Virus record (IMG/VR): IMGVR_UViG_3300025810_000004
Coordinates: 94,947-158,946 of that record
DNA length: 64,000 nt
Strand: one strand, 5' to 3'
Source: a virus
This document shows, in pieces, positions 430-16,176 of this stretch. The translations under genes were made by a program, and so were the position numbers. The notes below the pieces were generated by a model that did no database searches, was not told the origin of the DNA, and saw nothing but the letters and a program-made list of their open reading frames with translations. Position 1 is the first letter of the stretch, and each line of letters begins with the position of its first letter.

Positions 430-1671
430 TTACTTCACTATGTAGGTCCTGCTGTTCTCCAGGTTCTTGGTCCCCCTCATATACGGCATGACCCACCTCC
501 GCTTGGAGTTGAGCTTTTCCTCCAGTTCCAGCAGTTCATCCCTGAACTTTTCCACCTTCCACTGGAGATACTCTTTTCTGGTATCGGACGCAGATTCGAT
601 TTCCAGAGTCAGGGACTTTATATCCTGCTCTTTGCGGTTGAGCTTGTTCTTGATGGTGGCCTTCTTCGGCCACCAGTGTCCCCTAACCCAGTGCCTTCTT
701 GGGGAACCCTTATCCCCCGGCTGACCCTCGGTCGGCCCTCCCCAGGACATACCCCCAACCCAGGTCACCACGTCTCTGGGGATTTTGTCCAGTTTCCTCT
801 GGAGCTTCTTCCCTTTCCCCCTCTTGGGGTCCTTTGTCCTGTTCAGGGAGTCTTCCAGAGCCTTAATCTTGGTTGCGTTGTCTTCCGTGGCTGGGTCCAG
901 CTCCAGCACCGGGTCTGAGCTGTCCATGTAGAGGAAGGTTCCAAACACGATCCGAAGCGTGTCTATGATGTGCTTTCGAGCTTCCTGGCCTTCTGGCAGT
1001 TCGGTCACCAGACCCAGCTTGCTCATTACCTCTGGATTCTCTATATCCTCCAGAGTGGAATCCCTCTTGGGGTCGTCCAACATGACCCTCAGGTATGTTT
1101 CGAGGTCGTACCTATCTTCTTCCATTTCGTGGAGGTCCAACACCATCCACATTGAAGCGTCATCGCCCACGTGGGTGGACCTCTCGTTCTCAGGCCCCCA
1201 GAGGTACAGGTAAACGCACCCCGGATCGTTTGGCGGGGCAGGCTTGGGTTCTGTGGTTTCCCCCGCGTAGTGCCTGTCCACCCCCCTCCTGAACCTCACG
1301 TACACACCTTCAATTTGGTGCCATTGAGTTTCGTTTCCTCCCCATATCTTGGTCTTCCCCTCAGGAAGGGCGATATACTGGTTCGGGTACGGGGTTCTGA
1401 TCTCAGAGGGTGATACACCTTCCAAGGAGGTGTTGGCCAAGGCTGTCTGCATGGCGGGGGGTACGACGAAGTTCTGCCTCCCCGCCATCACGTACTCTGC
1501 CTGGTGCAGGGTGAGAGTGTACAGAGCCCTGTGGAACCCTATTCCAGGTATGTGGAAGTACCCAGCTATCTCCTTGGGCCCCGCCTTGCCACTGATTATC
1601 AGGTCCAACATGTGGGAGTGTACCTTCTCCCTTGGAAGCTCTTGGGTCAGCATTCTGAATTCTGGGGTCAT
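430..1671 (-). CDS. Hypothetical phage protein (413 aa) with a C-terminal PRxHWxRGHW...WxxPYxRG motif split by a coiled coil
   Basis: Long ORF with coding-like composition. SPRRHWVRGHWW and RRWVMPYMRG resemble a recurring C-terminal motif of phage/MGE hypothetical proteins. Confidence 0.75.
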   Translation of the reverse strand: MTPEFRMLTQELPREKVHSHMLDLIISGKAGPKEIAGYFHIPGIGFHRALYTLTLHQAEYVMAGRQNFVVPPAMQTALANTSLEGVSPSEIRTPYPNQYIALPEGKTKIWGGNETQWHQIEGVYVRFRRGVDRHYAGETTEPKPAPPNDPGCVYLYLWGPENERSTHVGDDASMWMVLDLHEMEEDRYDLETYLRVMLDDPKRDSTLEDIENPEVMSKLGLVTELPEGQEARKHIIDTLRIVFGTFLYMDSSDPVLELDPATEDNATKIKALEDSLNRTKDPKRGKGKKLQRKLDKIPRDVVTWVGGMSWGGPTEGQPGDKGSPRRHWVRGHWWPKKATIKNKLNRKEQDIKSLTLEIESASDTRKEYLQWKVEKFRDELLELEEKLNSKRRWVMPYMRGTKNLENSRTYIVK

Positions 1672-1868: not shown

Positions 1869-1884
1869 CGTTGACCTATCTATA
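1869..1884 (+). promoter_or_regulatory. Putative late-type promoter CGTT-N7-CTATA upstream of the His-kinase operon
   Basis: cgtt gacctat ctata. The same motif with the same spacing precedes eight other + strand genes. Confidence 0.55.
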
Positions 1885-1897
1885 AGTTCGGTGAATT

Positions 1898-3478
1898 GTG
1901 ACCATGAAGATCTCCAACCTACATAAGCTGGTAGCCACACTTCCGGCACCCCACCAAGGGATGTTCTGGCTGTGCTTTGTTGTGCTTTGCTGGCAGGGTC
2001 TATACTTGGCCGAATTCTTTGGCGAGTCACTTTACTCCTTCGTAGAGCGACCAGTTCAGCCCCCTGACAAGTGTGAATTCACCCCTGACCTCGGACAAGA
2101 AGCTGAGGGGATGGACCCAGGGGAGGTCCACTTTGTGGTGGATATGCGGTGCTCCGTGTCGAATTTCAGCACGGTGTTCGTCACCACCCCGCTCTGTGGG
2201 GACTGCGACGATGAAGGCTGGAACGAACTCCAAGACGAGGATGGGGACGGGACATACGAGGGCAACATCCAGTTCGTGGATACCACGACCGACTCACCTC
2301 TGGTGGGGGCTGGGCTGATGTACAGATACGGTGTCACCATAGAATCCGGAAGCGGGTTCATGGCCACCTATCCAGAAAACCTCCTGCCCTCCAATTCGAA
2401 TGACGTCTCCTGTGCCCCGTCCTCAGACGGTATGACCTATGCCTACAGGACCCTCGTGACCGACGGTGACGGAACCGAAGTGAAGGACATATTCGGTTCT
2501 TGCACGAGTGTCCCCATCCCATCTGAAGAATGGGACAAAATCCGGGACGAGGAGTGGCGTTCTGCCAACTCGTTCCTGTATGAACACGTGGACCCATGGT
2601 GGAAACCCACCTCCGAGTTCCTGACGAAATTCCAGGTCGTTCCCCCCATCCTGTTTTTGACCTTCTGTTCTCTCTTGTACGTTTACGCCACCTTCTTCAT
2701 AGGCAGCAAATACGTCGGCAGGAAAGAAGCGGCCCTCCACAAAGCACTGGAAGAGACGAAGCACAAGAACACCTACTTGGAGCACGCGGCCAAGATCCTA
2801 CGCCATGACATGCACTCGGGGATCAACACCTACATCCCCCGTGGCATCAAGTCGCTGGAGCGGCGCTTGGAGCAGGCCCAGAAGAACCAGACCATTCGCG
2901 TCTTCAACGACAAGGGCGAGGTGTCCCCACAAACGCTGGTCGGGGCGTTGCGCCTGGACGCCCCGCTACGGATGCTCAAGGAAGGGCTGGCACACACCCA
3001 GAAGGTCTACGCTGGCGTGTGCGAGTTCACCAACCTCGTGAAGGCTGGGTCCAAGATAAACACCAAGCCCCACGACGTGGGAGAGATCCTGAGGGACTAT
3101 CTGGACACGGTGGAATACAAGAGCGAAGTCATAATAGACGACAACCTCCCAACCCTCGAAGTCAATGCGCCTCTTTTTTGCACCGCTCTGGACAACCTCA
3201 TAAGAAACGGTCTGAAGTACAACGATTCTGCATCCAGAATGGTGACGGTCACCAAATTTGACGAGCATCACATAGCCGTTCTGGACAACGGCAGGGGGAT
3301 GTCCCAAGAGGAATTCCTCGAATTTTCCAAGCCCTACACCCGCAAGGCCGGACAACAAGAAAGTGGCATGGGTCTGGGGCTCAATATTTGCATAGCCATA
3401 CTCAACGAACACGGGTTCTCTGTTTCTTCCTCGGTTAGACCAGAGGGCGGCACAGAAATAAAAGTGAGGATTTCTTGA
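1898..3478 (+). CDS. Membrane sensor histidine kinase
   Basis: Two hydrophobic TM segments flank an extracytoplasmic domain. H-box LRHDMHSG, N-box DNLIRNGLKY, G1 DNGRGM, G2 GMGLGL. Confidence 0.92.
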   Translation: MTMKISNLHKLVATLPAPHQGMFWLCFVVLCWQGLYLAEFFGESLYSFVERPVQPPDKCEFTPDLGQEAEGMDPGEVHFVVDMRCSVSNFSTVFVTTPLCGDCDDEGWNELQDEDGDGTYEGNIQFVDTTTDSPLVGAGLMYRYGVTIESGSGFMATYPENLLPSNSNDVSCAPSSDGMTYAYRTLVTDGDGTEVKDIFGSCTSVPIPSEEWDKIRDEEWRSANSFLYEHVDPWWKPTSEFLTKFQVVPPILFLTFCSLLYVYATFFIGSKYVGRKEAALHKALEETKHKNTYLEHAAKILRHDMHSGINTYIPRGIKSLERRLEQAQKNQTIRVFNDKGEVSPQTLVGALRLDAPLRMLKEGLAHTQKVYAGVCEFTNLVKAGSKINTKPHDVGEILRDYLDTVEYKSEVIIDDNLPTLEVNAPLFCTALDNLIRNGLKYNDSASRMVTVTKFDEHHIAVLDNGRGMSQEEFLEFSKPYTRKAGQQESGMGLGLNICIAILNEHGFSVSSSVRPEGGTEIKVRIS

Positions 3479-3909
3479 TGATCCGGAGCATACTTCTGGT
3501 GGACGACGAGAACCTGTTCCATCTGGTTTTCGAAGACGCTTGTTCTCTACTGGACATAGTCCTGAATCTGCAGGCCATAAACTCGGCCAACAAAGCTGAG
3601 GATTTGTTCAAGGACTGGCACCAGGACCCAACCGGACGCCCAGAGTGCGTGTTCGTGGATCTGAATCTTGTGGGTTCGAGCTTCGACGGCATAGAACTCG
3701 TCAGGCGTATCAACGAACTCTACGGCAACGGAGTCGTGATAGGTATTATATCCTCTTCCTCCGACCAGATGGAGATAGAGAAGGCAAAGTCAGTCGGTGC
3801 ACAATTCTGGATTGTGAAGTCTGACGACATAGAGCCCCGGCTTGAGGCTTTCAGGGAGGACTACCAGGGGTACATGGACCGCTCCGCCTCTTTTGAGGTC
3901 TACTCCTGA
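3475..3909 (+). CDS. Single-domain response regulator (REC, CheY-like)
   Basis: ILLVDDE, VFVDLNL (phospho-acceptor Asp), ISSS, FWIVKS. Overlaps the kinase stop codon. Confidence 0.92.
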   Translation: MMIRSILLVDDENLFHLVFEDACSLLDIVLNLQAINSANKAEDLFKDWHQDPTGRPECVFVDLNLVGSSFDGIELVRRINELYGNGVVIGIISSSSDQMEIEKAKSVGAQFWIVKSDDIEPRLEAFREDYQGYMDRSASFEVYS

Positions 3910-4553
3910 TGCCTCCCTCGGTTTCCTTCCCCGACGAAGCTTGGACCAGCCTCATACTTCTGGCCCAGAAGGACTCCGTCTGGTTGGAAGGAAATATACT
4001 GAAGGTGCTGGACCCAGGGGACAGCGCTTCTTACAGGTCCTACCTGGAGTCTGCTACCAAAGCGGATAAAGAAACCAGGGAAAGAAGGCTGGCTGTTACA
4101 AAGCAGGTACAAGCTCAAAACAAAGAACTGATAGCAGCCCAACAGGACTTAGACCAATCCAAAGTTCAGCTGGAAGACGCACTGGCCAAAGCCGAGGAAG
4201 AAGCAAGAAAGGCCAAAGAAGCTCAGAGGGCTGAAAAGGAGGCCAAAGAGGAAATAGACTCGGCCTACCAGAAAGCACAGCAGGACCTCGACTACATGCA
4301 GAAGAGGACCCAATTCGAGCTTATGGGGAACATAGTGAGGGTAGCCCTGGCGACCATAATAGGGGTGGGGGCGGTCACCACCATTCTTTACGCTGTCGCT
4401 TTGTTCGGAACTGGGGCGGAACCTGCCGACACCGCGCTCCTTGCAAACACTTGGTCCAGCATGTTCGGAATACTTCTCACCAACTCCTTTTCCATTATAG
4501 GAACCATAATGGGAGTGAAGTACGCCACCGATAGAAGAGAAGGCGAGGATTAG
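3909..4553 (+). CDS. Coiled-coil protein with two C-terminal TM helices, coupled to the response regulator
   Basis: TGATG stop/start overlap, an E/K/A/Q-rich heptad region and two hydrophobic segments. Confidence 0.8.
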   Translation: MPPSVSFPDEAWTSLILLAQKDSVWLEGNILKVLDPGDSASYRSYLESATKADKETRERRLAVTKQVQAQNKELIAAQQDLDQSKVQLEDALAKAEEEARKAKEAQRAEKEAKEEIDSAYQKAQQDLDYMQKRTQFELMGNIVRVALATIIGVGAVTTILYAVALFGTGAEPADTALLANTWSSMFGILLTNSFSIIGTIMGVKYATDRREGED

Positions 4554-4763
4554 CCCAACAGGCGTTACTTCGCGATATGAAGAACTACTGAGTGTGAGCA
4601 CGGGCTCTGGAGTGAGTCTCATACACGCCCACCCATTCCCCGTTTTTATCCCAAACGTGGAACCCATTCAGATACAGCCCACCTTTTGACTCCCAAGTTC
4701 CCAACCAAACTATGTAAGAACGGTACATTACTTTTGTCTCCAGTTTCCACGTTCAGTGTTCCC

Positions 4764-4793
4764 TATAGAGAGGATATCGTTATCCTCTCTATA
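4764..4793. promoter_or_regulatory. 13-bp perfect inverted repeat carrying the late-type promoter motif on both strands
   Basis: tatagagaggata-tcgt-tatcctctctata. + strand reads CGTT-N7-CTATA; - strand reads CGAT-N7-CTATA. Confidence 0.55.
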
Positions 4794-4830
4794 AAGACCG
4801 GGGTTTATACTCCTCAGGGGAGACTGAAGT

Positions 4831-6399
4831 ATGGCACAACCACCGTTCCTTATAGACGAACTCCAGATCGAGCCGGGAAGCGGCGACACACTCACCGTGT
4901 CTCGCGATTCGACCGACGGAGCTATGAAGTTCGTCGATGCAGTCGTGACATCTGGAGTGCTGCTTCCGAACCTTGTAGGATTGAGGAATGTCACCGGAGT
5001 CTACATGGTGGGTCGAGCTGGTGATGGTGCCCCGTATACGAGCGTCCAAGACGCTCTCGACGCGGTTCCCGACTCTTCCAGCGCTGCTCTCCCCTCCCTG
5101 GTTGTAATTCTGCCTGGTGTGTACACCGAGAACGTTTCCATCCAGAAGGACGGGGTGTATCTGGTCGGTCTGGGTGGAGCGACCATAACCAACGATGGGG
5201 CATCGGACACTGTTGAGATCAGCGCTGCCATAGCCACGACTCCTCAGGACGTTCTGCTCCGAGGTGTGATCATACAGAACACCTCTGCAGGTCAGTCCTG
5301 TGTCCGGATCATAGGTGCGGATTCCTTCGCCTCCGGTACGGTCACCGTGAACGCCGCGCCTCTGGCCACCGGAGACTCCATCACCATCAACGGCACTGCC
5401 CTCACCGGGACAGCAGGCACCCGCACTTCGGGGAGCAACGACTTCTCCGTCTCCGGCATGACCGACGCTGCCATAGCAGCCGAGATCGTAGACGCCATCA
5501 ACGATTCGGCCAACGCTTTCTCCTCTCTGGTAAGTGCAGAGGCAACCGGGGTCGGACTGAACGTGGTCACCCTCACGGCTATCACCGCCGGATCAGGTGG
5601 AAACGCTATAACCCTCGCAGCGAGCACCACGCCTCCGGGCAACATGACCCCATCGGGTGCGAACCTCACCGGGGGCGGGTCTTCGGGCTCCCTCGTGGGC
5701 AACGGAGTCATAACCGTCGAGGACTGCGACCTCGTGGCGGCTGGGGCAGCTGGGTACCAGGTTCGAGCCGATGCCTCTGGACACATCAGAATTCGTGGCG
5801 GCACCTGGCGTGGGTCAGACAGTGCCAGCCTCTCGACTGTCTCCAACTGCGCTCTGTTCTCGGTCGCCGGGGTCGAGTGGACCAACGACTTCGAAACCGC
5901 CTACGACACCACCTCAGACCGCCCCAATGACACCACCTGCGAGTACCTGCTCTCCGGTATAAGCCGCGCAGGTGGAATTCTGTCGAATCTCGTCGGTGCC
6001 GGGTCACTCACCATAAGTAGTTGCCCAAGTGTGGGAACACTGGCGCAGGCGGGGGACCAGACCCTCGCCGTGCAGCACTCGTCTGTGGGTGCGGTCACGC
6101 TGAGCGATACCGTGGCTGCCACACTGACCGCCAGCACACGCACGACTGCTACGGTGGGTGGCGGAACCCCCACACTGTCTGAGCCTCGTATCCGGGGCGA
6201 GGTGGCTTTTGCGGCCTCGGCTTCCGAATCGTACTCGTTCGATGTGACCCAGCCAGACACCGACTACACCGTGTTGCTGGAGAGCCCTACCACGGCTTCC
6301 GTCCTCGCGGTGACAAACAAGACAACCTCCGGGTTCGACATCGAGGCCAGTGTAGCTTTGACAGGCACCGTTGGTCTGTCTATCGTGCGCGGCCAGTAG
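4831..6399 (+). CDS. Putative virion protein with a pectin-lyase/pectinesterase-like beta-helix start and a beta-rich insertion domain
   Basis: YTSVQDALDAV...ILPGVYTENVSI is a typical beta-helix cap. The protein is G/S/T/A-rich; AIAAEIVDAIN...VTLTAITAG resembles tail-sheath-type insertion domains. Confidence 0.6.
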   Translation: MAQPPFLIDELQIEPGSGDTLTVSRDSTDGAMKFVDAVVTSGVLLPNLVGLRNVTGVYMVGRAGDGAPYTSVQDALDAVPDSSSAALPSLVVILPGVYTENVSIQKDGVYLVGLGGATITNDGASDTVEISAAIATTPQDVLLRGVIIQNTSAGQSCVRIIGADSFASGTVTVNAAPLATGDSITINGTALTGTAGTRTSGSNDFSVSGMTDAAIAAEIVDAINDSANAFSSLVSAEATGVGLNVVTLTAITAGSGGNAITLAASTTPPGNMTPSGANLTGGGSSGSLVGNGVITVEDCDLVAAGAAGYQVRADASGHIRIRGGTWRGSDSASLSTVSNCALFSVAGVEWTNDFETAYDTTSDRPNDTTCEYLLSGISRAGGILSNLVGAGSLTISSCPSVGTLAQAGDQTLAVQHSSVGAVTLSDTVAATLTASTRTTATVGGGTPTLSEPRIRGEVAFAASASESYSFDVTQPDTDYTVLLESPTTASVLAVTNKTTSGFDIEASVALTGTVGLSIVRGQ

Positions 6400-8813: not shown

Positions 8814-10724
8814 ATGCGGCTGTCCGATATAGCGGCGAATGTGGGTCGAACTGTCTCGGACTCTGACGACGTTGTAGACCCCATCACCTATATCGAGGCT
8901 CCTTGGGGTCTGAGTCTCCGCCTTTTCCCTGTGCAGAGGGTCATAATCAAGGCCCATTATGGGATGGAGCTGGACGACAACCCCCACGATTACCCCCTCG
9001 ACCAGCCCGTCCCCCCCAACCATCCCGAATACGACCCCGTTCTCATGGACGAAGACGGGTTCTACAAGTTCAGGATAGTGGTGACAAACTTCAGGAGGAA
9101 AAACCCTCAGTTCATGACTGAAGCTGGGTACCTGAAGTTCCTCCACAGCGAGGGCAGGTGCAACATAGACAAAGTCGTTCCCGGAAAGCAACGTCGGGAA
9201 ATGGTACTGAGTGTCGGAAGGCGTAGTGGCAAGACCCTGATCACGTCCTGTATCGTAGCCTACGAGACCTACAAGCTGCTACTCAAGGGCAACCCACAGA
9301 AATACTACGGGTCCTCTCAGTCCAACGTGATCCAGCTGATCTCCGTCGCAACCGACCGGGACCAAGCGGGTCTGCTGTACCGCGAAGCCTCCGGGCACTT
9401 CCAGAAGTGCGACTTCTTCAAGCCCTATGCGGCCAACGCAACCCAGAGCTTCGCCACCTTCCAGACCCCGTTCGACATCGAGAACTACGGGTCCTACAGG
9501 GACAACCCCAAGGCCCGGTACTCGATAAACGTGACGTTCCGTTCCTGCGTTGCAAAGGGACTCCGTGGTGGTGCCAACATTCTGGTCGCTCTGGACGAGG
9601 TTGCCCACTTCGGGGAGAAGGGGCAGGCGTCAGCCGACGAGGTGTACCAAGCTGTTGAGCCGAGTACTCGTACCTTCTCCCCCAAGGACCCCAACAACCA
9701 AACCCGCCCCATAGGGGAAAACGAAGGCCGGATCATCATGATCTCGTCACCGTTGGGGCGTCAGGGCCTTTTCTACAAGCAGTACCAACTCGGATTTGGG
9801 GACAACGAGGCAGCGGACAACCTTATCTGCATTCAGGCCCCGACCTGGGAGGTCAACCCCACCGTTCCAGCCAACACCTTCGTCGCTTCCTACCTGAAAG
9901 ACCCCAACGTCTTCTTCACCGAGTTCGGTGCCGTATTCAGTGACAGAACGAGGGGCTGGATAACCAGCGAGAAGGACCTCACCGACTGCATCGACCCGGA
10001 TTTGCGTCCGAGGCACAGGGCACCAGCTCTTGCGCCCCACTTCATGGGAATCGACGTCGCTCTTGCGGGTGACTATTCTGCCATAGCAATAGGTCACAAC
10101 ACACCTGACGGCAAGATAGTCCTGGACCTCGTTGAGAGGATAAAAGCCGGGGAGGGCGACTACGAGGGGTACGACAGGCTGGAATTCGACGACGTTGCTG
10201 ACTGGATCTTCAATTTCACGAAACGGTTCTACATAGTCCACGGGGTGTTCGACCAATGGCTCGGAATCCCCATGGAGCAGGCGCTGAAGAAGCGGGGGCT
10301 CACCAACCTCGAATCCCTGTACCACTCTCGTCAGGTCAGCAGCAACATATACCAGAATTTCAAGTCCCTCATGATGGACCAGAGGCTGGTGATGTACAAC
10401 TGGCCCCTGACTGACGGCGAAGACTTCGCACCCCACATACAGGAATTGCTGGAACTGGAGCAGGAAGTCGTCAGCAAATACATCGTTAAGGTCCAGGCCC
10501 CCAACATCGAAGGCAAGCACGACGATATGTCTGATGCTATAGCCCGTATGGTGTGGTGTGCCTCTCAGGATTCTACGCAGGTCAAGAAGGTCACCGGGTC
10601 CCGCAACAGCAAAGGCAAACCTGTGCGTTCAGGTGTGGGGAACAAAACCCCGACGTTCGGCAGGAGCGCCAAGAAGTCGGGGAGGAGCGGATTCGGGAGC
10701 CACTCCTCGCGCCAGAAACGTTAG
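8814..10724 (+). CDS. terL: Terminase large subunit
   Basis: Walker A VGRRSGKT, Walker B VALDEVAH, coupling motif ISSP, RNase-H-like nuclease motifs FMGIDVA and HDDMSDA. Confidence 0.93.
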   Translation: MRLSDIAANVGRTVSDSDDVVDPITYIEAPWGLSLRLFPVQRVIIKAHYGMELDDNPHDYPLDQPVPPNHPEYDPVLMDEDGFYKFRIVVTNFRRKNPQFMTEAGYLKFLHSEGRCNIDKVVPGKQRREMVLSVGRRSGKTLITSCIVAYETYKLLLKGNPQKYYGSSQSNVIQLISVATDRDQAGLLYREASGHFQKCDFFKPYAANATQSFATFQTPFDIENYGSYRDNPKARYSINVTFRSCVAKGLRGGANILVALDEVAHFGEKGQASADEVYQAVEPSTRTFSPKDPNNQTRPIGENEGRIIMISSPLGRQGLFYKQYQLGFGDNEAADNLICIQAPTWEVNPTVPANTFVASYLKDPNVFFTEFGAVFSDRTRGWITSEKDLTDCIDPDLRPRHRAPALAPHFMGIDVALAGDYSAIAIGHNTPDGKIVLDLVERIKAGEGDYEGYDRLEFDDVADWIFNFTKRFYIVHGVFDQWLGIPMEQALKKRGLTNLESLYHSRQVSSNIYQNFKSLMMDQRLVMYNWPLTDGEDFAPHIQELLELEQEVVSKYIVKVQAPNIEGKHDDMSDAIARMVWCASQDSTQVKKVTGSRNSKGKPVRSGVGNKTPTFGRSAKKSGRSGFGSHSSRQKR

Positions 10725-11358: not shown

Positions 11359-11658
11359 TTGGACAAAAAGGCGCGAGAGATAGAGAACCTCAACTCCCGG
11401 ATAAAAGAACTGGCTCGTACGGCTTCTTCCAATCTGGAGGAAGCTCTGCGTATTGTCCGAAATTCCCCGGCTTCCAGGTTGGAAAAGAGGATAGCCCAGA
11501 GAAGGCTGGCAGAGGCTCTCGATGCGCTCCAGGGAGTGAAGGGCATAGTGACCACACCCGAAAGGGAGACACACGAGGAGTGGAAGGAGAGGCGTGAAGA
11601 GCGAAAGAAGAGACGTTCTGAGCGGCTCAAAGGCATGAAGGAGCAGGCTGATGTCTGA
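11359..11658 (+). CDS. Small basic coiled-coil hypothetical protein
   Basis: Fills the gap between genes and overlaps the portal start. Confidence 0.6.
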   Translation: MDKKAREIENLNSRIKELARTASSNLEEALRIVRNSPASRLEKRIAQRRLAEALDALQGVKGIVTTPERETHEEWKERREERKKRRSERLKGMKEQADV

Positions 11659-13357
11659 CAACAACGAGGGCAAGTCCGTCAAGAAGGTCAGAAACGGCGA
11701 CGGCAAGAAGAAGGCCAAGACCGGGAAGCCCCGCAAAGTCACCGCTTCCATGATGCGAACCAGGACCGCCTCGTACGGTGGTATGAGCGCCGGGAACGGC
11801 GGGTCAGTAGAGGGGGCGGGGGGCAACTTCTACTCCCCGGAACTCAGCACGGACTTTCTGGAGCTTCCTCAGTCTCTCCACGAGCAGTGGAATTACTACA
11901 GGTTCTTCTACAACTCCGAGCCGTTCGTCGGTCAGGCTGTGGACCTCCACACGGAGTTGCCAATCAGCAAGGTCCGGATCGGTATGGCCCACGCCAAGAA
12001 CCGGGACATAGCTGTTGCCGCAACCAAGTTCTGTGAGAGGTGGGCGAAGAATATCAAGCTCCTCGACAGGCTGATCTCCATCACACACGACCGGAACCTC
12101 ATAGGTGAGGTCAACATATGGTGTGAAGACGCCAACCCGGATATGCCCAGGGACATACGCCAGCAGCTCCAGCGCACTCTGCTCGAATCCGGAGAAGCGG
12201 AAGAAAAGTGGGTGGACAGAGAGGACGCCGACGAGAGGGCCGTTGCTTGGCTCAAGAAGAACTACAAGGGGTGGACCAGCATCCGGGTTCTTCCTCCAGA
12301 GCAGGTCAAGATGGAGTCGTTCAACTTCACGGACGAACGCATATTCGAGCTTATCCCCGACTCCAAGACTCGGGACATCATAGACAAATACCAGCAGGGG
12401 GACCCCAACGCGAAGCGTATCGTGGAGTCCATGCCACCTGAGGTGGTCAAAGCCGTCGTTGAGGGCGGGAACATCCCGCTCAACACGGACCCGATGGCTG
12501 GGTCTTTCATCTACTATCTGGCAAACAAGAAGTCAGACTATGAGCCCCGTGGCCGTTCCATCCTTGAGAGGTGTATGAGGGCGCTCGTATACCGGGACAA
12601 GCTGCGTCAGGCACAGACCAGCATCGCCTCCCGCCACATGACCCCGATCCGTGTCGTGTTCGGTGAGGATATGGACGTGGCAGACGTGGAGGCTCTGCGA
12701 GAGCAGGTGGACAACGCGCTGCAGGACCCGGATTACAGCATCATCGCGAACTTCCAGATCAACTGGGAGGAAATGGGTGCAGACCAGAGACTGTTGGACC
12801 TGAGTGGTGAATACGACCTCACCGACCGGCAGTTGTACTCTGGTCTGGGAGTCACAGAAGGGTTGCTGTCTGGGGAGTCCAGCTATTCGGGCGACCGGAT
12901 CAATCTGGAAGTTATCAACACTCGGTATATGCTCCTCCGGGAGCAGCTTCAGGACTTGGTGGAGACCCAGTTCTTCAAGCCCATGTGCGCACGTATGGGC
13001 TTCGTAGAGGAGGACGACGACGGTGAAGAATACGTCGTCGTACCGACCCTGTCGTTCACCCGGCTTGCACTCCGTGACAATCGAGACACCTTCGACGCTC
13101 TATACAATCTGTATACAAAGGGTTCACTGGATGTGGACACCATTCTGGAGCTTCTCAACCTCGACCCCATAGCTGTCAGAGAGAGAATCGAGCGTGACCT
13201 GTTCACGGTCAATGACCCGACCTTCAACGAGGTTCTGCGAGGAGTCTACGGAGATACTGGCCGAGCGATTGCGGAGAACTCGAACGCAGCCGAGAAGATC
13301 GCGGAAGTGCTGGGGCTGAAGATGAACCCACCGGAAGAAGATGGCGGCAGATACTAA
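11651..13357 (+). CDS. Portal protein
   Basis: 568 aa, just downstream of terL. Segments PFVGQAVDLHTELP, PRGRSILERC, KLRQAQTSIASRHMTPIRVV and LGVTEGLLSGESSYS match portal architecture. Confidence 0.8.
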   Translation: MSDNNEGKSVKKVRNGDGKKKAKTGKPRKVTASMMRTRTASYGGMSAGNGGSVEGAGGNFYSPELSTDFLELPQSLHEQWNYYRFFYNSEPFVGQAVDLHTELPISKVRIGMAHAKNRDIAVAATKFCERWAKNIKLLDRLISITHDRNLIGEVNIWCEDANPDMPRDIRQQLQRTLLESGEAEEKWVDREDADERAVAWLKKNYKGWTSIRVLPPEQVKMESFNFTDERIFELIPDSKTRDIIDKYQQGDPNAKRIVESMPPEVVKAVVEGGNIPLNTDPMAGSFIYYLANKKSDYEPRGRSILERCMRALVYRDKLRQAQTSIASRHMTPIRVVFGEDMDVADVEALREQVDNALQDPDYSIIANFQINWEEMGADQRLLDLSGEYDLTDRQLYSGLGVTEGLLSGESSYSGDRINLEVINTRYMLLREQLQDLVETQFFKPMCARMGFVEEDDDGEEYVVVPTLSFTRLALRDNRDTFDALYNLYTKGSLDVDTILELLNLDPIAVRERIERDLFTVNDPTFNEVLRGVYGDTGRAIAENSNAAEKIAEVLGLKMNPPEEDGGRY

Positions 13358-14770: not shown

Positions 14771-15074
14771 GTCTTTAGCTCTTGCTTATTGGTTCATGGA
14801 TGACGGATCAATTGGTAGGAGGACCAAAAGTGGTGCACTGTTGAGTGCCTGTATACACACTTGTGGATTCGGGATTCCAGAGAACGAATTATTGGTAACA
14901 TTCCTGAAAGAGAGATTCGGGTTGGAACCGATTTTAGCATTTTCCAAAGGTTATCCTTACCTAAGGTTCAATGTAAAAAGCGCGCGAGCATTGGGGGAAA
15001 TAATTACCCCATATTTGCACCCTTCTATGGCTTACAAAGGAAACTGCTTTGGCTCGACTGACGAACAAATCTGA
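14745..15074 (+). pseudogene. LAGLIDADG homing endonuclease remnant (single motif) between the intein halves
   Basis: LALAYWFMDDGS...ITPYLHPSMAYK in a different frame from both dnaX parts; more AT-rich than the flanks. Confidence 0.75.
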
Positions 15075-16176
15075 ACCTTTTCGCGCTCCAGTATATGATG
15101 TGACCGTGGAGGGGACACATTCTTTTTTTGCTGGTTCAGGCCCCACCCCCAACAGAGGTGTGCTGGTCCACAACTGCCACCGACTCTCCAAGAACGCACT
15201 GGACGTCCTGCTCAAGCCCATGGAGGACAATGTTCCTGGGTCTGAGAACAAGAGGCTCGTCATTCTGTTCTGCACCACGGAACCAGACAAGATGGTCGGG
15301 ACCGTGTTCTCCAGATGCGCACCTGCTTTCACCATCAGACCCACATCGTTTGAGGAGATCTCGGATAGGTTGGCCTCCATCTGTGTGCTGGAGGGTATCA
15401 AATACGAGCCGACTGCCCTTCTGACCTTGGCTGAGATCAGCAAGAGTCACATCCGCGATGCCTTGAAGACCCTGGAGGGGGTCTCGGTCGTCAGCAACAG
15501 GGTCGTGGACGACAAGGCAGTCAGCTCGTATTTCAAATTCGATACCAACGAAGTCATCCTGAGTCTGTTGAAGGAGATACTCCTGGACAACAAACCAGAA
15601 TGCTTCGAGTTGGCCGAGTCCGTGTCCCGTGACCTTGGCCCAAAGGTTTCGTACGAGAGGCTTTCGGAAGCCTCGATGCTGGCCTATAGGTCGAGTCTGG
15701 GAATTCCGCCGAAGCGGACGTCTTGGGATCTCCAGAAACTCAGGGAGATCGGCGTGAACCACCAACAGGCTCTGTTGGAGGTCGCCAAGCACTTCGCCGC
15801 ACCTCCAAACAGGTCTTCTGGTTCTTCCTTTGTATTGGACTGCGTGGGTTTCACCCCCCACGTCAATACTGCCCCGACACCTCGAAGAGACACCAGCGAA
15901 AATAAGGGAGAAAAGGGGGAAGACAAGACCCCCGAAAAACTGGTAGACTACGAGAAGAGCAAGCAGGTGTCCCACCCTTCTGTTAATTCAGGTGGGGTGT
16001 ATATCGAGCCCAAAGCAGTCAAGAAAATCGAAGATGGGGCAGGCGGGTATGATACCCTGACTGTTCCGGTCGTCAAGACTAAGTCTTTAGACAGAGCTAC
16101 GTTTATTAAGCTGCTGCAGGTGCACCTCGGAGGGGTCAACATAAATGCCAAAAGGGGAGTCTTGGATAGTTCTTGA
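15049..16176 (+). CDS. dnaX: Intein C-half (42 aa) fused to the DnaX C-extein
   Basis: AAGGA RBS then TTG. Block F VYDVTVEGTHSFF, block G LVHN/C, then HRLSKNALDVLLKPMED, FCTTE, SRC and RDALKTLE of DnaX. Confidence 0.88.
   Translation: MARLTNKSEPFRAPVYDVTVEGTHSFFAGSGPTPNRGVLVHNCHRLSKNALDVLLKPMEDNVPGSENKRLVILFCTTEPDKMVGTVFSRCAPAFTIRPTSFEEISDRLASICVLEGIKYEPTALLTLAEISKSHIRDALKTLEGVSVVSNRVVDDKAVSSYFKFDTNEVILSLLKEILLDNKPECFELAESVSRDLGPKVSYERLSEASMLAYRSSLGIPPKRTSWDLQKLREIGVNHQQALLEVAKHFAAPPNRSSGSSFVLDCVGFTPHVNTAPTPRRDTSENKGEKGEDKTPEKLVDYEKSKQVSHPSVNSGGVYIEPKAVKKIEDGAGGYDTLTVPVVKTKSLDRATFIKLLQVHLGGVNINAKRGVLDSS

What the first reader, a model, noticed from the sequence alone, without database searches (positions are those of the whole stretch)
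1869..4553. Phage-encoded two-component operon with a possible carbohydrate-binding sensor and a membrane coiled-coil partner
Seen: His kinase, stand-alone REC protein and a coiled-coil/2-TM protein are translationally coupled and preceded by the same promoter motif as the virion genes. They also use the resident ATA/AGR codon style, so this does not look like recent host DNA. The sensor domain (VHFVVDM...ELQDEDGDGTYEG...YRY...SCAP...YAYRTL) resembles CBM-like modules of secreted glycan-active proteins (recalled, not verified). The regulator has no DNA-binding domain, so its output should be protein-protein. Inference: late-expressed environmental sensing that might tune lysis timing or host behaviour through the third protein.
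Basis: partly seen in the sequence, partly recalled or inferred. Interest (0 to 1): 0.72.

Follow-up and report, generated by a model that had tools for sequence, protein, structure and literature searches.

The report
Phage sensor relay with glycan-type sensor
A very large uncultured phage carries its own three-gene signalling unit (sensor kinase, phospho-receiver, undescribed membrane protein) that hundreds of uncultured phages keep, often beside their cell-bursting genes; this copy has an outward-facing sensor built like a sugar-binding module, so the phage may time host lysis by sensing glycans.

Summary
Window 1904-4553 holds three genes joined by TGATG overlaps. They are a two-TM histidine kinase, a 143-aa receiver with no output domain, and a 214-aa protein made of an N-domain, one long helix and a TM hairpin.

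The trio is not recent host DNA. The same gene order occurs in at least 577 IMG/VR viral contigs, and in nearly all of the 80 loci fetched. These include T4-like phages that share no detectable terminase or portal with this one. It is absent from 50,697 GenBank phage records. In 185,579 species genomes a motif scan found 8 loci, all MAGs. One of them is truly chromosomal and lacks the third gene.

In 21 of 63 dereplicated loci a holin or endolysin lies within three genes. In the closest relative a PG_binding_1 protein sits just downstream of the trio. A complex model supports the receiver binding the third protein (ipSAE 0.62, best control 0.00).

What is special here is the sensor. It is a Cys-rich periplasmic domain with a CBM20-like fold (Z about 10). 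It is homologous to CBM20/48-type repeats of secreted Bacteroidota proteins, one of them encoded in a SusC/SusD-GH16-GH3 locus.

The best reading is signal-gated control of a lysis-linked membrane protein, with a glycan as the possible cue. No step has been tested at the bench. This scan found the same trio earlier on other genomes. I found no paper that describes it.

The parts
1869..1883 (+). Promoter-like motif CGTTGACCTATCTAT, an instance of CGKTNNNCTNYCTAT
   Evidence: Seven exact copies in the record, all on the + strand and all 25-60 nt upstream of ORFs. A related CGGTAG..CTAT sits upstream of the kinase in L002, L099 and L100. Function as a promoter is inferred.
1904..3478 (+). Sensor histidine kinase (524 aa from ATG 1904; 526 aa from GTG 1898; residue numbers below count from 1898)
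   Evidence: HATPase_c at E 2.1e-13. Twenty full-length relatives at 42-91% identity keep H303 (RHDMHSGI), the N box (DNLIRNGLKYND), G1 (DNGRG) and G2 (GxGLGLNIC) invariant.
1964..2020 (+). Kinase TM1 (aa 23-41)
   Evidence: Hydropathy scan.
2036..2635 (+). Extracytoplasmic Cys-rich sensor (aa 47-246). The CBM20-like beta-sandwich core is aa ~70-201 (nt 2105-2500), followed by helices.
   Evidence: AF2 model, pLDDT 75. Foldseek top hits are all CBM20. VIA gives Z 8-10, rmsd 2.5-2.9 A over 94-97 residues. A sensor profile hits 234 cluster representatives, mostly multi-repeat proteins. All ten examined carry AMPK1_CBM, mostly with CBM_48, CBM_20 or X25; some also carry GH16 or Por_Secre_tail. 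hhalign to P0260 gives 99.5% probability and 37% identity, with five Cys shared.
2630..2707 (+). Kinase TM2 (aa 245-270), running straight into the DHp helix with no HAMP domain
   Evidence: Hydropathy and alignment.
2804..2806 (+). Codon of H303, the predicted phospho-acceptor
   Evidence: Invariant in 20 relatives, at the position of the HisKA H box. Autophosphorylation is not tested.
3179..3472 (+). Catalytic ATP-binding domain (aa 428-525)
   Evidence: Pfam HATPase_c.
3478..3909 (+). Stand-alone receiver (143 aa) with D9/D10, D61, S92-94 and K114
   Evidence: PF00072 at 38.4 bits. In 29 homologues the mean column identity is 79%, the catalytic residues are invariant and helix alpha1 (LFHLVFEDACSLLD) is nearly invariant.
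3909..4553 (+). Phage-only membrane protein: N-domain (aa 1-35), one continuous helix (aa 40-166) that becomes TM1, a short outside loop, then TM2 (aa 172-205) and a charged tail
   Evidence: AF2 model, pLDDT 89. In 31 homologues TM2 (WSNMFGILLTNSFSIIGTIMGVKY) is nearly invariant and the coiled coil varies in length. More than 7,800 clusters, none with a Pfam family. Atlas clusters are about 100% viral.
3990..4121 (+). Predicted receiver-binding surface of the third protein (aa 28-33 and 53-71)
   Evidence: Complex model: ipSAE 0.62, best control 0.00; the contacts reach receiver helix alpha1, residues 11-31. A model only.

Best explanation
This is one copy of a phage-specific three-part phosphorelay. 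Shown by sequence: a dimer-type class I histidine kinase with an intact H box and ATP-binding boxes, a catalytically complete single-domain receiver, and a dedicated membrane protein, all co-translated from one unit behind a recurring phage motif. Inferred mechanism: the kinase spans the inner membrane and exposes a disulfide-bonded, CBM20/48-type beta-sandwich to the periplasm. A ligand, most likely a glucan or oligosaccharide of the kind bound by its homologues in Bacteroidota polysaccharide-utilisation proteins, changes phosphorylation of H303. The phosphoryl group passes to D61 of the receiver. The receiver has no DNA-binding domain. It docks through helix alpha1 and the rim of its active site onto the N-domain and the first turns of the long helix of the third protein. 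That helix runs unbroken into a two-TM hairpin whose second helix is almost invariant and carries a GxxxG-type packing motif. The receiver's phosphorylation state would thereby change the oligomeric or pore-forming state of the hairpin in the host membrane. In relatives the trio travels with holins and endolysins. The most likely output is therefore the timing of host lysis, as a holin-like or antiholin-like switch. This variant would let lysis respond to a cue outside the cytoplasm.
For: Catalytic residues of the kinase and receiver are invariant across relatives. The order kinase > receiver > third gene is kept in nearly all of 87 loci: receiver found in 86, third protein in 83. These loci come from at least 577 IMG/VR contigs. 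The receiver stays 65-73% identical, although the window's terminase and portal have no detectable homologue in five large carrier records, two of which are T4-like. No match in GenBank phages. The motif scan of 185,579 species genomes gave only 8 MAG loci. Lysis link: Phage_holin_4_1, PG_binding_1+Amidase_2 and PG_binding_1+GH19 are the commonest neighbours. Of 63 dereplicated loci, 25 have one in the locus, 21 within three genes and 14 adjacent, across many kinase architectures. The nearest relative (90% identical kinase) has a PG_binding_1 protein two genes downstream of the trio. Receiver-third binding: ipSAE 0.61/0.69/0.62, best of 3 controls 0.00, runs agree in at least 97% of contacts, partner pLDDT 87; that mark was reached by 58 of 80 solved complexes and 2 of 110 mismatched pairs. 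Third-protein model: one helix from aa 40 to 166 leading into the hairpin, pLDDT 89. Sensor: CBM20 fold at Z 8-10. The best non-kinase match to the sensor profile sits in a SusC/SusD/GH16/GH3 locus and ends in a T9SS sorting domain.
Against: In this phage the only endolysin candidate found (PG_binding_1, G000:79776-80600) lies about 16 kb from the trio, so the lysis link rests on relatives. About 60% of dereplicated loci show no recognised lysis gene within 6 kb. The third protein matches no holin family in Pfam or PHROGs and is larger than typical holins. The predicted interface uses the receiver face that normally docks the kinase DHp, so the high score may partly reflect memory of receiver-DHp complexes. 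The sensor itself gets no Pfam CBM hit and no PDB sequence hit. Ligand-binding residues could not be mapped, and a shared fold shows no function. No expression, phosphotransfer or phenotype data exist.
Confidence: 0.5

Rival explanations
1. The relay works as described, but its output is not lysis. The hairpin protein alters another membrane function of the infected cell, such as membrane potential, transport, motility or superinfection exclusion. The lysis genes are then merely frequent neighbours in a shared late or membrane gene block.
For: TM2 is almost invariant across phages whose holins and endolysins are of different families: Amidase_2, GH19, and further Phage_lysozyme, Peptidase_M15_3 and Glucosaminidase neighbours. 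This fits a universal membrane or host target better than a phage-specific holin partner. About 60% of loci have no lysis gene nearby, and this window has none. Other frequent neighbours are YceI, Hsp70 and RNR.
Against: A holin or endolysin within three genes in a third of loci is far above the few percent I would expect for phages of 150-400 genes (my estimate). It recurs with different enzyme types and different kinase architectures. No defence-system family matches.
Confidence: 0.25
2. The third protein is not the effector but an auxiliary partner of the receiver: a membrane scaffold or a CheZ/Spo0E-like phosphatase that binds next to the active site. The real target of the phosphorylated receiver is an unknown host or phage protein.
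For: The modelled contacts involve receiver alpha1 and residues next to the acidic pocket (11, 13, 14, 116), not the usual alpha4-beta5-alpha5 output face. Invariant or nearly invariant polar residues of the third protein (R60, Q68, N71) lie in that contact zone. The receiver has a conserved C-terminal extension of about 25 aa that is free in the model.
Against: There is no sequence similarity to known receiver phosphatases. The extreme conservation of the TM hairpin is hard to explain for a mere anchor.
Confidence: 0.15
3. The trio is recently captured host DNA (a passenger two-component system) or an assembly chimera, with no phage-specific role.
For: The kinase core and receiver are ordinary bacterial domain types. 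One Bacteroidetes MAG chromosome carries a PAS-kinase plus a 58%-identical receiver.
Against: The trio is found in at least 577 viral contigs, with conserved order, codon style and upstream motif. The bacterial copy lacks the third gene, and its receiver type was found in only 1 of 201 genomes of its order. All other genome hits are MAG contigs of scattered phyla.
Confidence: 0.03

Closest known systems
Class I two-component pairs with a stand-alone receiver (Thermotoga HK853-RR468; CheY, Spo0F, DivK-type single-domain regulators)
   Same: DHp histidine followed by an HATPase_c domain with N, G1 and G2 boxes. The receiver has DD/D/S/K residues and no output domain, so output must go through protein contact. 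The receiver's alpha1 face is used for docking.
   Different: Encoded by phages. No Pfam HisKA match. The receiver is conserved unusually strongly (79% mean column identity). A dedicated, co-translated membrane hairpin partner of no known family is present, which those systems lack.
Phage T4 lysis inhibition: holin T with antiholins RI and RIII (PMC11413866, PMC8385771)
   Same: A phage-encoded system in which a sensed signal, partly periplasmic, changes the behaviour of a membrane lysis protein and so the time of lysis.
   Different: There is no sequence relationship. T4 uses direct binding of small antiholins to the holin, without kinase, phosphorylation or receiver. Control of lysis by the present trio is only inferred.
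LytSR with LrgAB/CidAB of staphylococci (PMC4830213)
   Same: A two-component system linked to holin-like and antiholin-like membrane proteins and murein hydrolase activity.
   Different: LytR is a DNA-binding regulator that acts on transcription of lrgAB. Here the receiver has no DNA-binding domain and is predicted to bind the membrane protein directly. LytS is a multi-TM sensor unrelated to this one. That system is bacterial, not viral.
CBM20/CBM48/AMPK-beta glycogen-binding modules
   Same: Same beta-sandwich fold: Z 8-10 over the whole ~95-residue module. Profile-level homology to repeats that Pfam calls AMPK1_CBM, CBM_48, CBM_20 or X25. These repeats occur in secreted enzymes and in a polysaccharide-utilisation-locus protein.
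   Different: Here the module is the periplasmic input of a histidine kinase, not an appendage of a glycoside hydrolase. It belongs to a Cys-rich subtype (F-VDM-C ... CG-C ... CAP ... C). It falls below Pfam thresholds itself, and its ligand is unknown.
Periplasmic glycan-sensing regulators of Bacteroidota (hybrid two-component systems, SusR-type; from my own knowledge, not checked here)
   Same: A periplasmic domain would read oligosaccharides and signal across the inner membrane.
   Different: Those sensors use other folds and end in DNA-binding outputs that control the host's polysaccharide-utilisation genes. This one is viral and ends in a membrane hairpin.

Membership tests
Class I (HisKA-type) sensor histidine kinase | Conserved phospho-acceptor His in a DHp H box | tested here: met
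   H303 in RHDMHSGI is invariant in 20 relatives.
Class I (HisKA-type) sensor histidine kinase | HATPase_c domain with N, G1, F and G2 boxes | tested here: met
   PF02518 at E 2.1e-13, 51.1 bits against a cut-off of 26.4. N433/N437, DNGRG and GxGLGL are invariant.
Class I (HisKA-type) sensor histidine kinase | Match to a Pfam HisKA-family DHp model | tested here: not met
   No HisKA-type family at E <= 0.01. The DHp is recognisable only by motif and position.
Class I (HisKA-type) sensor histidine kinase | Autophosphorylation and phosphotransfer | not testable with these tools
   Needs purified proteins.
Single-domain (CheY-like) response regulator | Receiver domain above the Pfam cut-off, with the acidic pair, phospho-Asp, Thr/Ser and Lys | tested here: met
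   PF00072 at 38.4 bits against 30.2. D9, D10, D61, S92-94 and K114 are invariant in 29 homologues.
Single-domain (CheY-like) response regulator | No output domain | tested here: met
   143 aa in total, with only a conserved tail of about 25 aa after alpha5.
CBM20/CBM48 clan carbohydrate-binding module | Beta-sandwich fold of the clan | tested here: met
   All 50 listed VIA matches contain CBM20: Z 8.0-10.0, rmsd 2.3-3.8 A, 91-100 residues aligned. Foldseek E values are 2e-4 to 3e-2.
CBM20/CBM48 clan carbohydrate-binding module | Sequence match to the family models | tested here: inconclusive
   The sensor alone has no Pfam hit and no PDB profile hit. However, its profile finds repeats (E 1e-61 to 1e-31 for the ten examined) that Pfam calls AMPK1_CBM, CBM_48 or CBM_20. 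hhalign to one of them gives 99.5% probability.
CBM20/CBM48 clan carbohydrate-binding module | Aromatic ligand-binding platform and measured glycan binding | not testable with these tools
   W108-N109 and Y-R-Y are conserved. No residue-level structural alignment or binding assay was available.
Holin / antiholin (class II, two TM) | Two TM helices with N-in/C-in topology and a charged C-terminal tail | tested here: met
   Hydropathy and model. Basic residues flank the hairpin on the N- and C-terminal sides, and the loop between the helices is acidic (read from the sequence).
Holin / antiholin (class II, two TM) | Match to a known holin family | tested here: not met
   No Pfam or PHROG holin family. 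In relatives, separate Phage_holin_4_1 genes sit beside the trio.
Holin / antiholin (class II, two TM) | Placement in the lysis cassette | tested here: inconclusive
   Lysis genes lie within three genes in 21 of 63 dereplicated loci, and a PG_binding_1 gene lies next to the trio in the nearest relative. In this window they are about 16 kb away.
Holin / antiholin (class II, two TM) | Hole formation or holin inhibition | not testable with these tools
   Needs expression assays.

The most novel reading that the evidence does not exclude
During infection of a Bacteroidota-type host, a giant phage places its own glycan receptor in the host's periplasm. The receptor is a CBM20/48-type module borrowed from polysaccharide-utilisation proteins. 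It reads glucan oligosaccharides (laminarin-type or alpha-glucan), that is, whether the host is feeding. The signal passes by phosphorylation to a receiver that directly gates a holin-like membrane hairpin. Burst timing would then follow the host's food supply. The hundreds of sister cassettes with PAS, GAF or other sensors would do the same with other cues, making a general, modular 'decide when to lyse' device of uncultured large phages.
Probability: 0.2. Interest if true: 0.88.

Novelty: new variant of a known kind. Interest (0 to 1): 0.72.

Why it matters
Lysis timing is a central life-history trait of phages, yet T4 lysis inhibition is one of very few signal-responsive mechanisms worked out. 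This is a complete, phage-owned phosphorelay with interchangeable sensors and a fixed receiver-plus-hairpin output. It is spread over hundreds of uncultured large aquatic phages, and no paper or GenBank phage record in the collections searched holds it. If it gates lysis, environmental control of burst timing would be widespread in nature and would affect carbon flow during algal blooms. The variant in this window gives a concrete, testable input, because its sensor is a glycan-binding-type module related to proteins of Bacteroidota glucan-utilisation loci. The receiver-hairpin pair would also be a new kind of two-component output: direct control of a membrane protein.

Tried and rejected
- Single-protein pattern scans of viral and genome collections found nothing. 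Alignment-derived patterns were needed.
- tblastn of the kinase against GenBank phages gave only generic kinase-domain hits at 23-27% identity.
- The sensor alone gave no Pfam hit and its profile gave no PDB hit.
- The third protein's DUF2207_C match (19.3 bits against a cut-off of 33) was rejected as sub-threshold coiled-coil or TM noise.
- PADLOC hits (LeoA, GajA, JetC) are coiled-coil noise.
- Source names for the third protein (FeoB, FlhF, RuvC) and the Atlas label 'GLE1-like' were rejected as spurious, because no Pfam family backs them.
- A search for longer, fused forms of the third protein found a single 458-aa protein with no domains.
- The Pfam tally of 150 neighbour-cluster representatives showed no dominant family beyond those already seen.
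- Four literature searches found no description of the module. The jumbo-phage review PMC7824862 mentions histidine kinases only to set apart a different, divergent receiver type.
Full report
**Where the window lies.** The window is the last 64 kb of a 158,946-bp IMG/VR virus record. CheckV rates it 36% complete, which implies a genome of roughly 440 kb (the size is my inference). Phage identity is clear. A large terminase (8814-10724), a portal (11651-13357) and a clamp loader (15049-16176) match PHROG families.

**The observation.** Three + strand ORFs fill 1898/1904-4553.
- The first is a histidine kinase. Pfam gives HATPase_c at E 2.1e-13.
- The second is a 143-aa receiver. PF00072 scores 38.4 bits against a cut-off of 30.2.
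- The third is a 214-aa protein with no family above cut-off.
- Both junctions read TGATG, so each stop shares one base with the next ATG.

CGKTNNNCTNYCTAT occurs seven times in the whole record. Every copy is on the + strand and lies 25-60 nt before an ORF of at least 100 aa. One copy sits at 1869-1883. In the window, 11 matches with up to one mismatch were found against 1.95 expected. Three related phages carry CGGTAG..CTAT just upstream of their kinase genes. That the motif is a late promoter remains an inference from the virion-type genes it precedes.

Codon usage agrees with residency. The cassette has ATA/Ile 0.60, AGR/Arg 0.55 and GC3 0.68. Nine resident genes pooled give 0.41, 0.41 and 0.71, with a wide spread between genes.

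**Anatomy of the kinase.** Twenty full-length relatives at 42-91% identity were aligned. The layout is:
- TM1 at aa 23-41.
- An extracytoplasmic domain of about 200 aa with six conserved cysteines.
- TM2 at aa 245-270, running directly into the DHp helix with no HAMP domain.
- Invariant H303 (RHDMHSGI), N box, DNGRG and GxGLGL (hydropathy).

No Pfam HisKA model matches, so the DHp is assigned by motif only.

**The receiver and the third protein.** In 29 homologues the receiver keeps D9/D10, D61, S92-94 and K114. Its mean column identity is 79%, and helix alpha1 is almost invariant.

The third protein is modelled at pLDDT 89. It has a small N-domain and a single helix from aa 40 to 166 that continues into TM1. 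A short acidic loop follows, then TM2 and a charged tail. Across 31 homologues the central coiled coil varies in length, while TM2 (WSNMFGILLTNSFSIIGTIMGVKY) is nearly invariant. Basic residues on both cytoplasmic flanks give an N-in/C-in topology; this is read from the sequence.

**Distribution: the key result.**
- Patterns from the kinase alignment found at least 577 IMG/VR contigs with a kinase core 52-60% identical.
- Across the 87 loci then held (80 from IMG/VR, 7 fetched earlier), tblastn finds the receiver (65-87% identical) in 86 and the third protein (37-54%) in 83. The order is always kinase, receiver, third gene. The flanking genes differ widely.
- The third-protein family exceeds 7,800 clusters at 90% identity, none with a Pfam domain. 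Atlas clusters are labelled about 100% viral.
- Neither the receiver nor the third protein matches any of 50,697 GenBank phage records.
- The window's terminase and portal have no detectable homologue in five large carrier records, one of them 297 kb and 99% complete. Two of those records are T4-like, with Gp23 and Terminase_6N. The window's record shows no Gp23.

The trio is therefore shared by phages whose packaging genes show no detectable similarity.

**Occurrence in bacteria.** The same motifs occur at only 8 loci in 185,579 species genomes, all in MAGs of scattered phyla. Several of these carry the full trio and look like binned phage contigs.

One locus lies in real chromosomal context on a 967-kb Bacteroidetes contig, among TauE, Sox cytochrome, TetR and ABC1 genes. 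It has a PAS-kinase and a 58%-identical receiver but no third gene anywhere in that genome. Its receiver type was found in 1 of 201 genomes of its order.

**Link to lysis.** The commonest conserved neighbours are Phage_holin_4_1, PG_binding_1+Amidase_2 and PG_binding_1+GH19 endolysins. YceI, Hsp70 and ribonucleotide reductase follow.

Of 63 dereplicated loci, 25 contain a holin or endolysin, 21 within three genes and 14 immediately adjacent. These loci span many kinase architectures, from 300 to 712 aa, with one or two kinases. Further neighbours include Phage_lysozyme, Peptidase_M15_3 and Glucosaminidase.

The nearest relative has a 90% identical kinase and the same pectinesterase-like, terminase and portal genes downstream. 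It carries a PG_binding_1 protein two genes downstream of the trio. The window has only a 280-nt spacer there. Its own PG_binding_1 protein lies about 16 kb upstream, at G000:79776-80600.

I estimate chance proximity at a few percent for genomes of this size. The association is therefore strong, but it is not universal and is not present in this window.

**Receiver output.** A controlled complex prediction used the receiver with third-protein aa 1-146.
- ipSAE was 0.61, 0.69 and 0.62, against 0.00 for the best of three controls.
- The runs agreed in at least 97% of contacts, and partner pLDDT was 87.
- The same mark was reached by 58 of 80 solved complexes and 2 of 110 mismatched pairs.
- The interface joins receiver alpha1 (residues 11-31, plus 116) to third-protein residues 28-33 and 53-71. 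That zone includes invariant R60 and Q68 and nearly invariant N71.

Caveat: alpha1 is the face that receivers use to dock kinase DHp helices. The score may therefore partly reflect remembered receiver-DHp complexes. The same geometry would also suit a phosphatase-like partner, which I keep as a rival.

**The sensor: what is special here.** The domain model covers aa 47-246 at pLDDT 75. It shows a beta-sandwich followed by helices.
- Every top Foldseek hit is a CBM20 starch-binding domain, from glucoamylase, CGTase, beta-amylase, STBD1, GDE5 or laforin. E values run from 2e-4 to 3e-2.
- VIA gives Z 8.0-10.0 at 2.3-3.8 A over 91-100 residues.
- The sensor alone has no Pfam or PDB sequence match.
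- A sensor-only profile run against 1.84 billion representatives finds 234 proteins. Most are large, with 2-11 repeats of the module.
- In all ten examined, Pfam calls AMPK1_CBM, mostly with CBM_48, CBM_20 or X25. Two also carry GH16 catalytic domains and three carry T9SS Por_Secre_tail sorting domains.
- hhalign to one such protein gives 99.5% probability and 37% identity over 133 columns, with five cysteine positions shared.
- The best non-kinase match to the sensor profile is encoded directly after SusC, SusD, a PKD protein, GH16 and GH3.

That gene set is the layout of Bacteroidota beta-glucan (laminarin-type) utilisation loci. This last point rests on my own knowledge, and the ligand inference rests on it.

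The shared cysteines and secreted homologues place the sensor in the periplasm. Only about 29 clusters at 90% identity, or three at 50%, couple this module to the kinase. Other family members have PAS/GAF inputs or other putative periplasmic domains. Most have N-terminal hydrophobic segments.

**Mechanism proposed.** Steps shown by sequence are the intact catalytic residues, the coupling of the three genes, the topology, and the conservation and distribution of the trio. Steps supported only by models are the CBM-type fold and the receiver-third contact.

The inferred steps are as follows. A periplasmic glycan alters kinase activity, and the phosphoryl group passes from H303 to D61. The receiver's state is then transmitted through the rigid helix to the hairpin. 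The hairpin acts as a holin-like or antiholin-like element that sets lysis time.

My confidence is as follows:
- About 0.9 that this is a functional phage-specific relay.
- About 0.5 for the whole chain, including lysis as the output.
- About 0.35-0.4 that the cue is a glucan.

**Comparison with known systems.** The relay works like class I kinase/stand-alone receiver pairs. It differs in its viral home, its missing HisKA match and its dedicated hairpin partner.

In purpose it most resembles T4 lysis inhibition (PMC11413866, PMC8385771) and LytSR-LrgAB (PMC4830213). There is no homology to either. The receiver here lacks a DNA-binding domain, so it cannot act on transcription the way LytR does.

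Four literature searches found no description of such a module. The jumbo-phage review PMC7824862 does not cover it.

**Earlier notes of this scan.** The same trio was reported on several other genomes, with the same lysis-linked reading. I reached the distribution, the context and the binding support independently here. I could not reproduce the noted sensor-hairpin fusions. New in this report:
- The CBM20/48-type periplasmic sensor variant and its link to a polysaccharide-utilisation locus.
- The single chromosomal bacterial kinase-receiver pair that lacks the hairpin.
- The conserved upstream motif.

**Verdict.** This is a new variant of a known kind of system. It is of high interest but entirely untested at the bench.

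Noticed in passing
window 4757-4795: A perfect-looking inverted repeat (ctatagagaggata...tatcctctctatag) lies between the third gene and the pectinesterase-like gene. It contains the CGKT..CTAT motif on both strands (4765-4779 on the - strand, 4778-4792 on the +). It could be an operator or terminator overlapping the next promoter-like site.
   Followed up: partly
window 430-1671 (-): The 413-aa gene upstream of the kinase has a same-length counterpart, at the same position and on the same strand, in the nearest relative. That counterpart is flagged AcrVA2-like (PF26125). My own Pfam scan of the window protein gave no family at E <= 0.01.
   Followed up: no
L024, L025, L045, L047, L055, L060, L062, L079, L082, L087: Many carriers have two kinases of this family in tandem, often separated by a ~210-aa unknown gene, feeding one receiver and one hairpin gene. 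The second kinase has a TM helix ~30 aa before the H box, like the window's kinase, but a different outside domain. This suggests multi-input versions.
   Followed up: partly
L094 (G006:C1 about 505,900-518,560): A Bacteroidetes MAG chromosome carries a PAS-kinase and a 58%-identical receiver of this otherwise viral family, next to TetR, ABC1 and sulfur-oxidation genes. It has no hairpin gene. This may be a captured phage pair or a remnant of the bacterial ancestor.
   Followed up: partly
L016, L018, L020, L032, L056, L067, L076 and others: A YceI-like gene (PF04264, E 5e-43) sits directly before the kinase, or between the kinase and the receiver, in 12 loci. An Hsp70/DnaK gene (619 aa) flanks the trio in 9 loci.
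   Followed up: no
G000:79776-80600 (L096:2777-3601): The only endolysin candidate found in this record has PG_binding_1 followed by a C-terminal domain without a Pfam family. That domain is homologous (38% over 178 aa) to a ~205-aa gene that sits next to the holin in other carriers. It may be an undescribed cell-wall hydrolase domain.
   Followed up: partly
window about 2870-2960 (kinase aa ~325-355): The window and three relatives (P0003-P0005) carry an insertion of about 17 aa (QKNQTIRVFNDKGEVSPQT...) in the linker after the DHp helix; P0001 and P0025 have a different insert at the same place. Most relatives lack it.
   Followed up: no
window 4831-6399: The 522-aa gene after the trio has a weak pectinesterase/pectin-lyase-type match (E 8.4e-6, below cut-off) and is conserved in the nearest relative. 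It is probably a tail-spike-like glycan-active virion protein.
   Followed up: no
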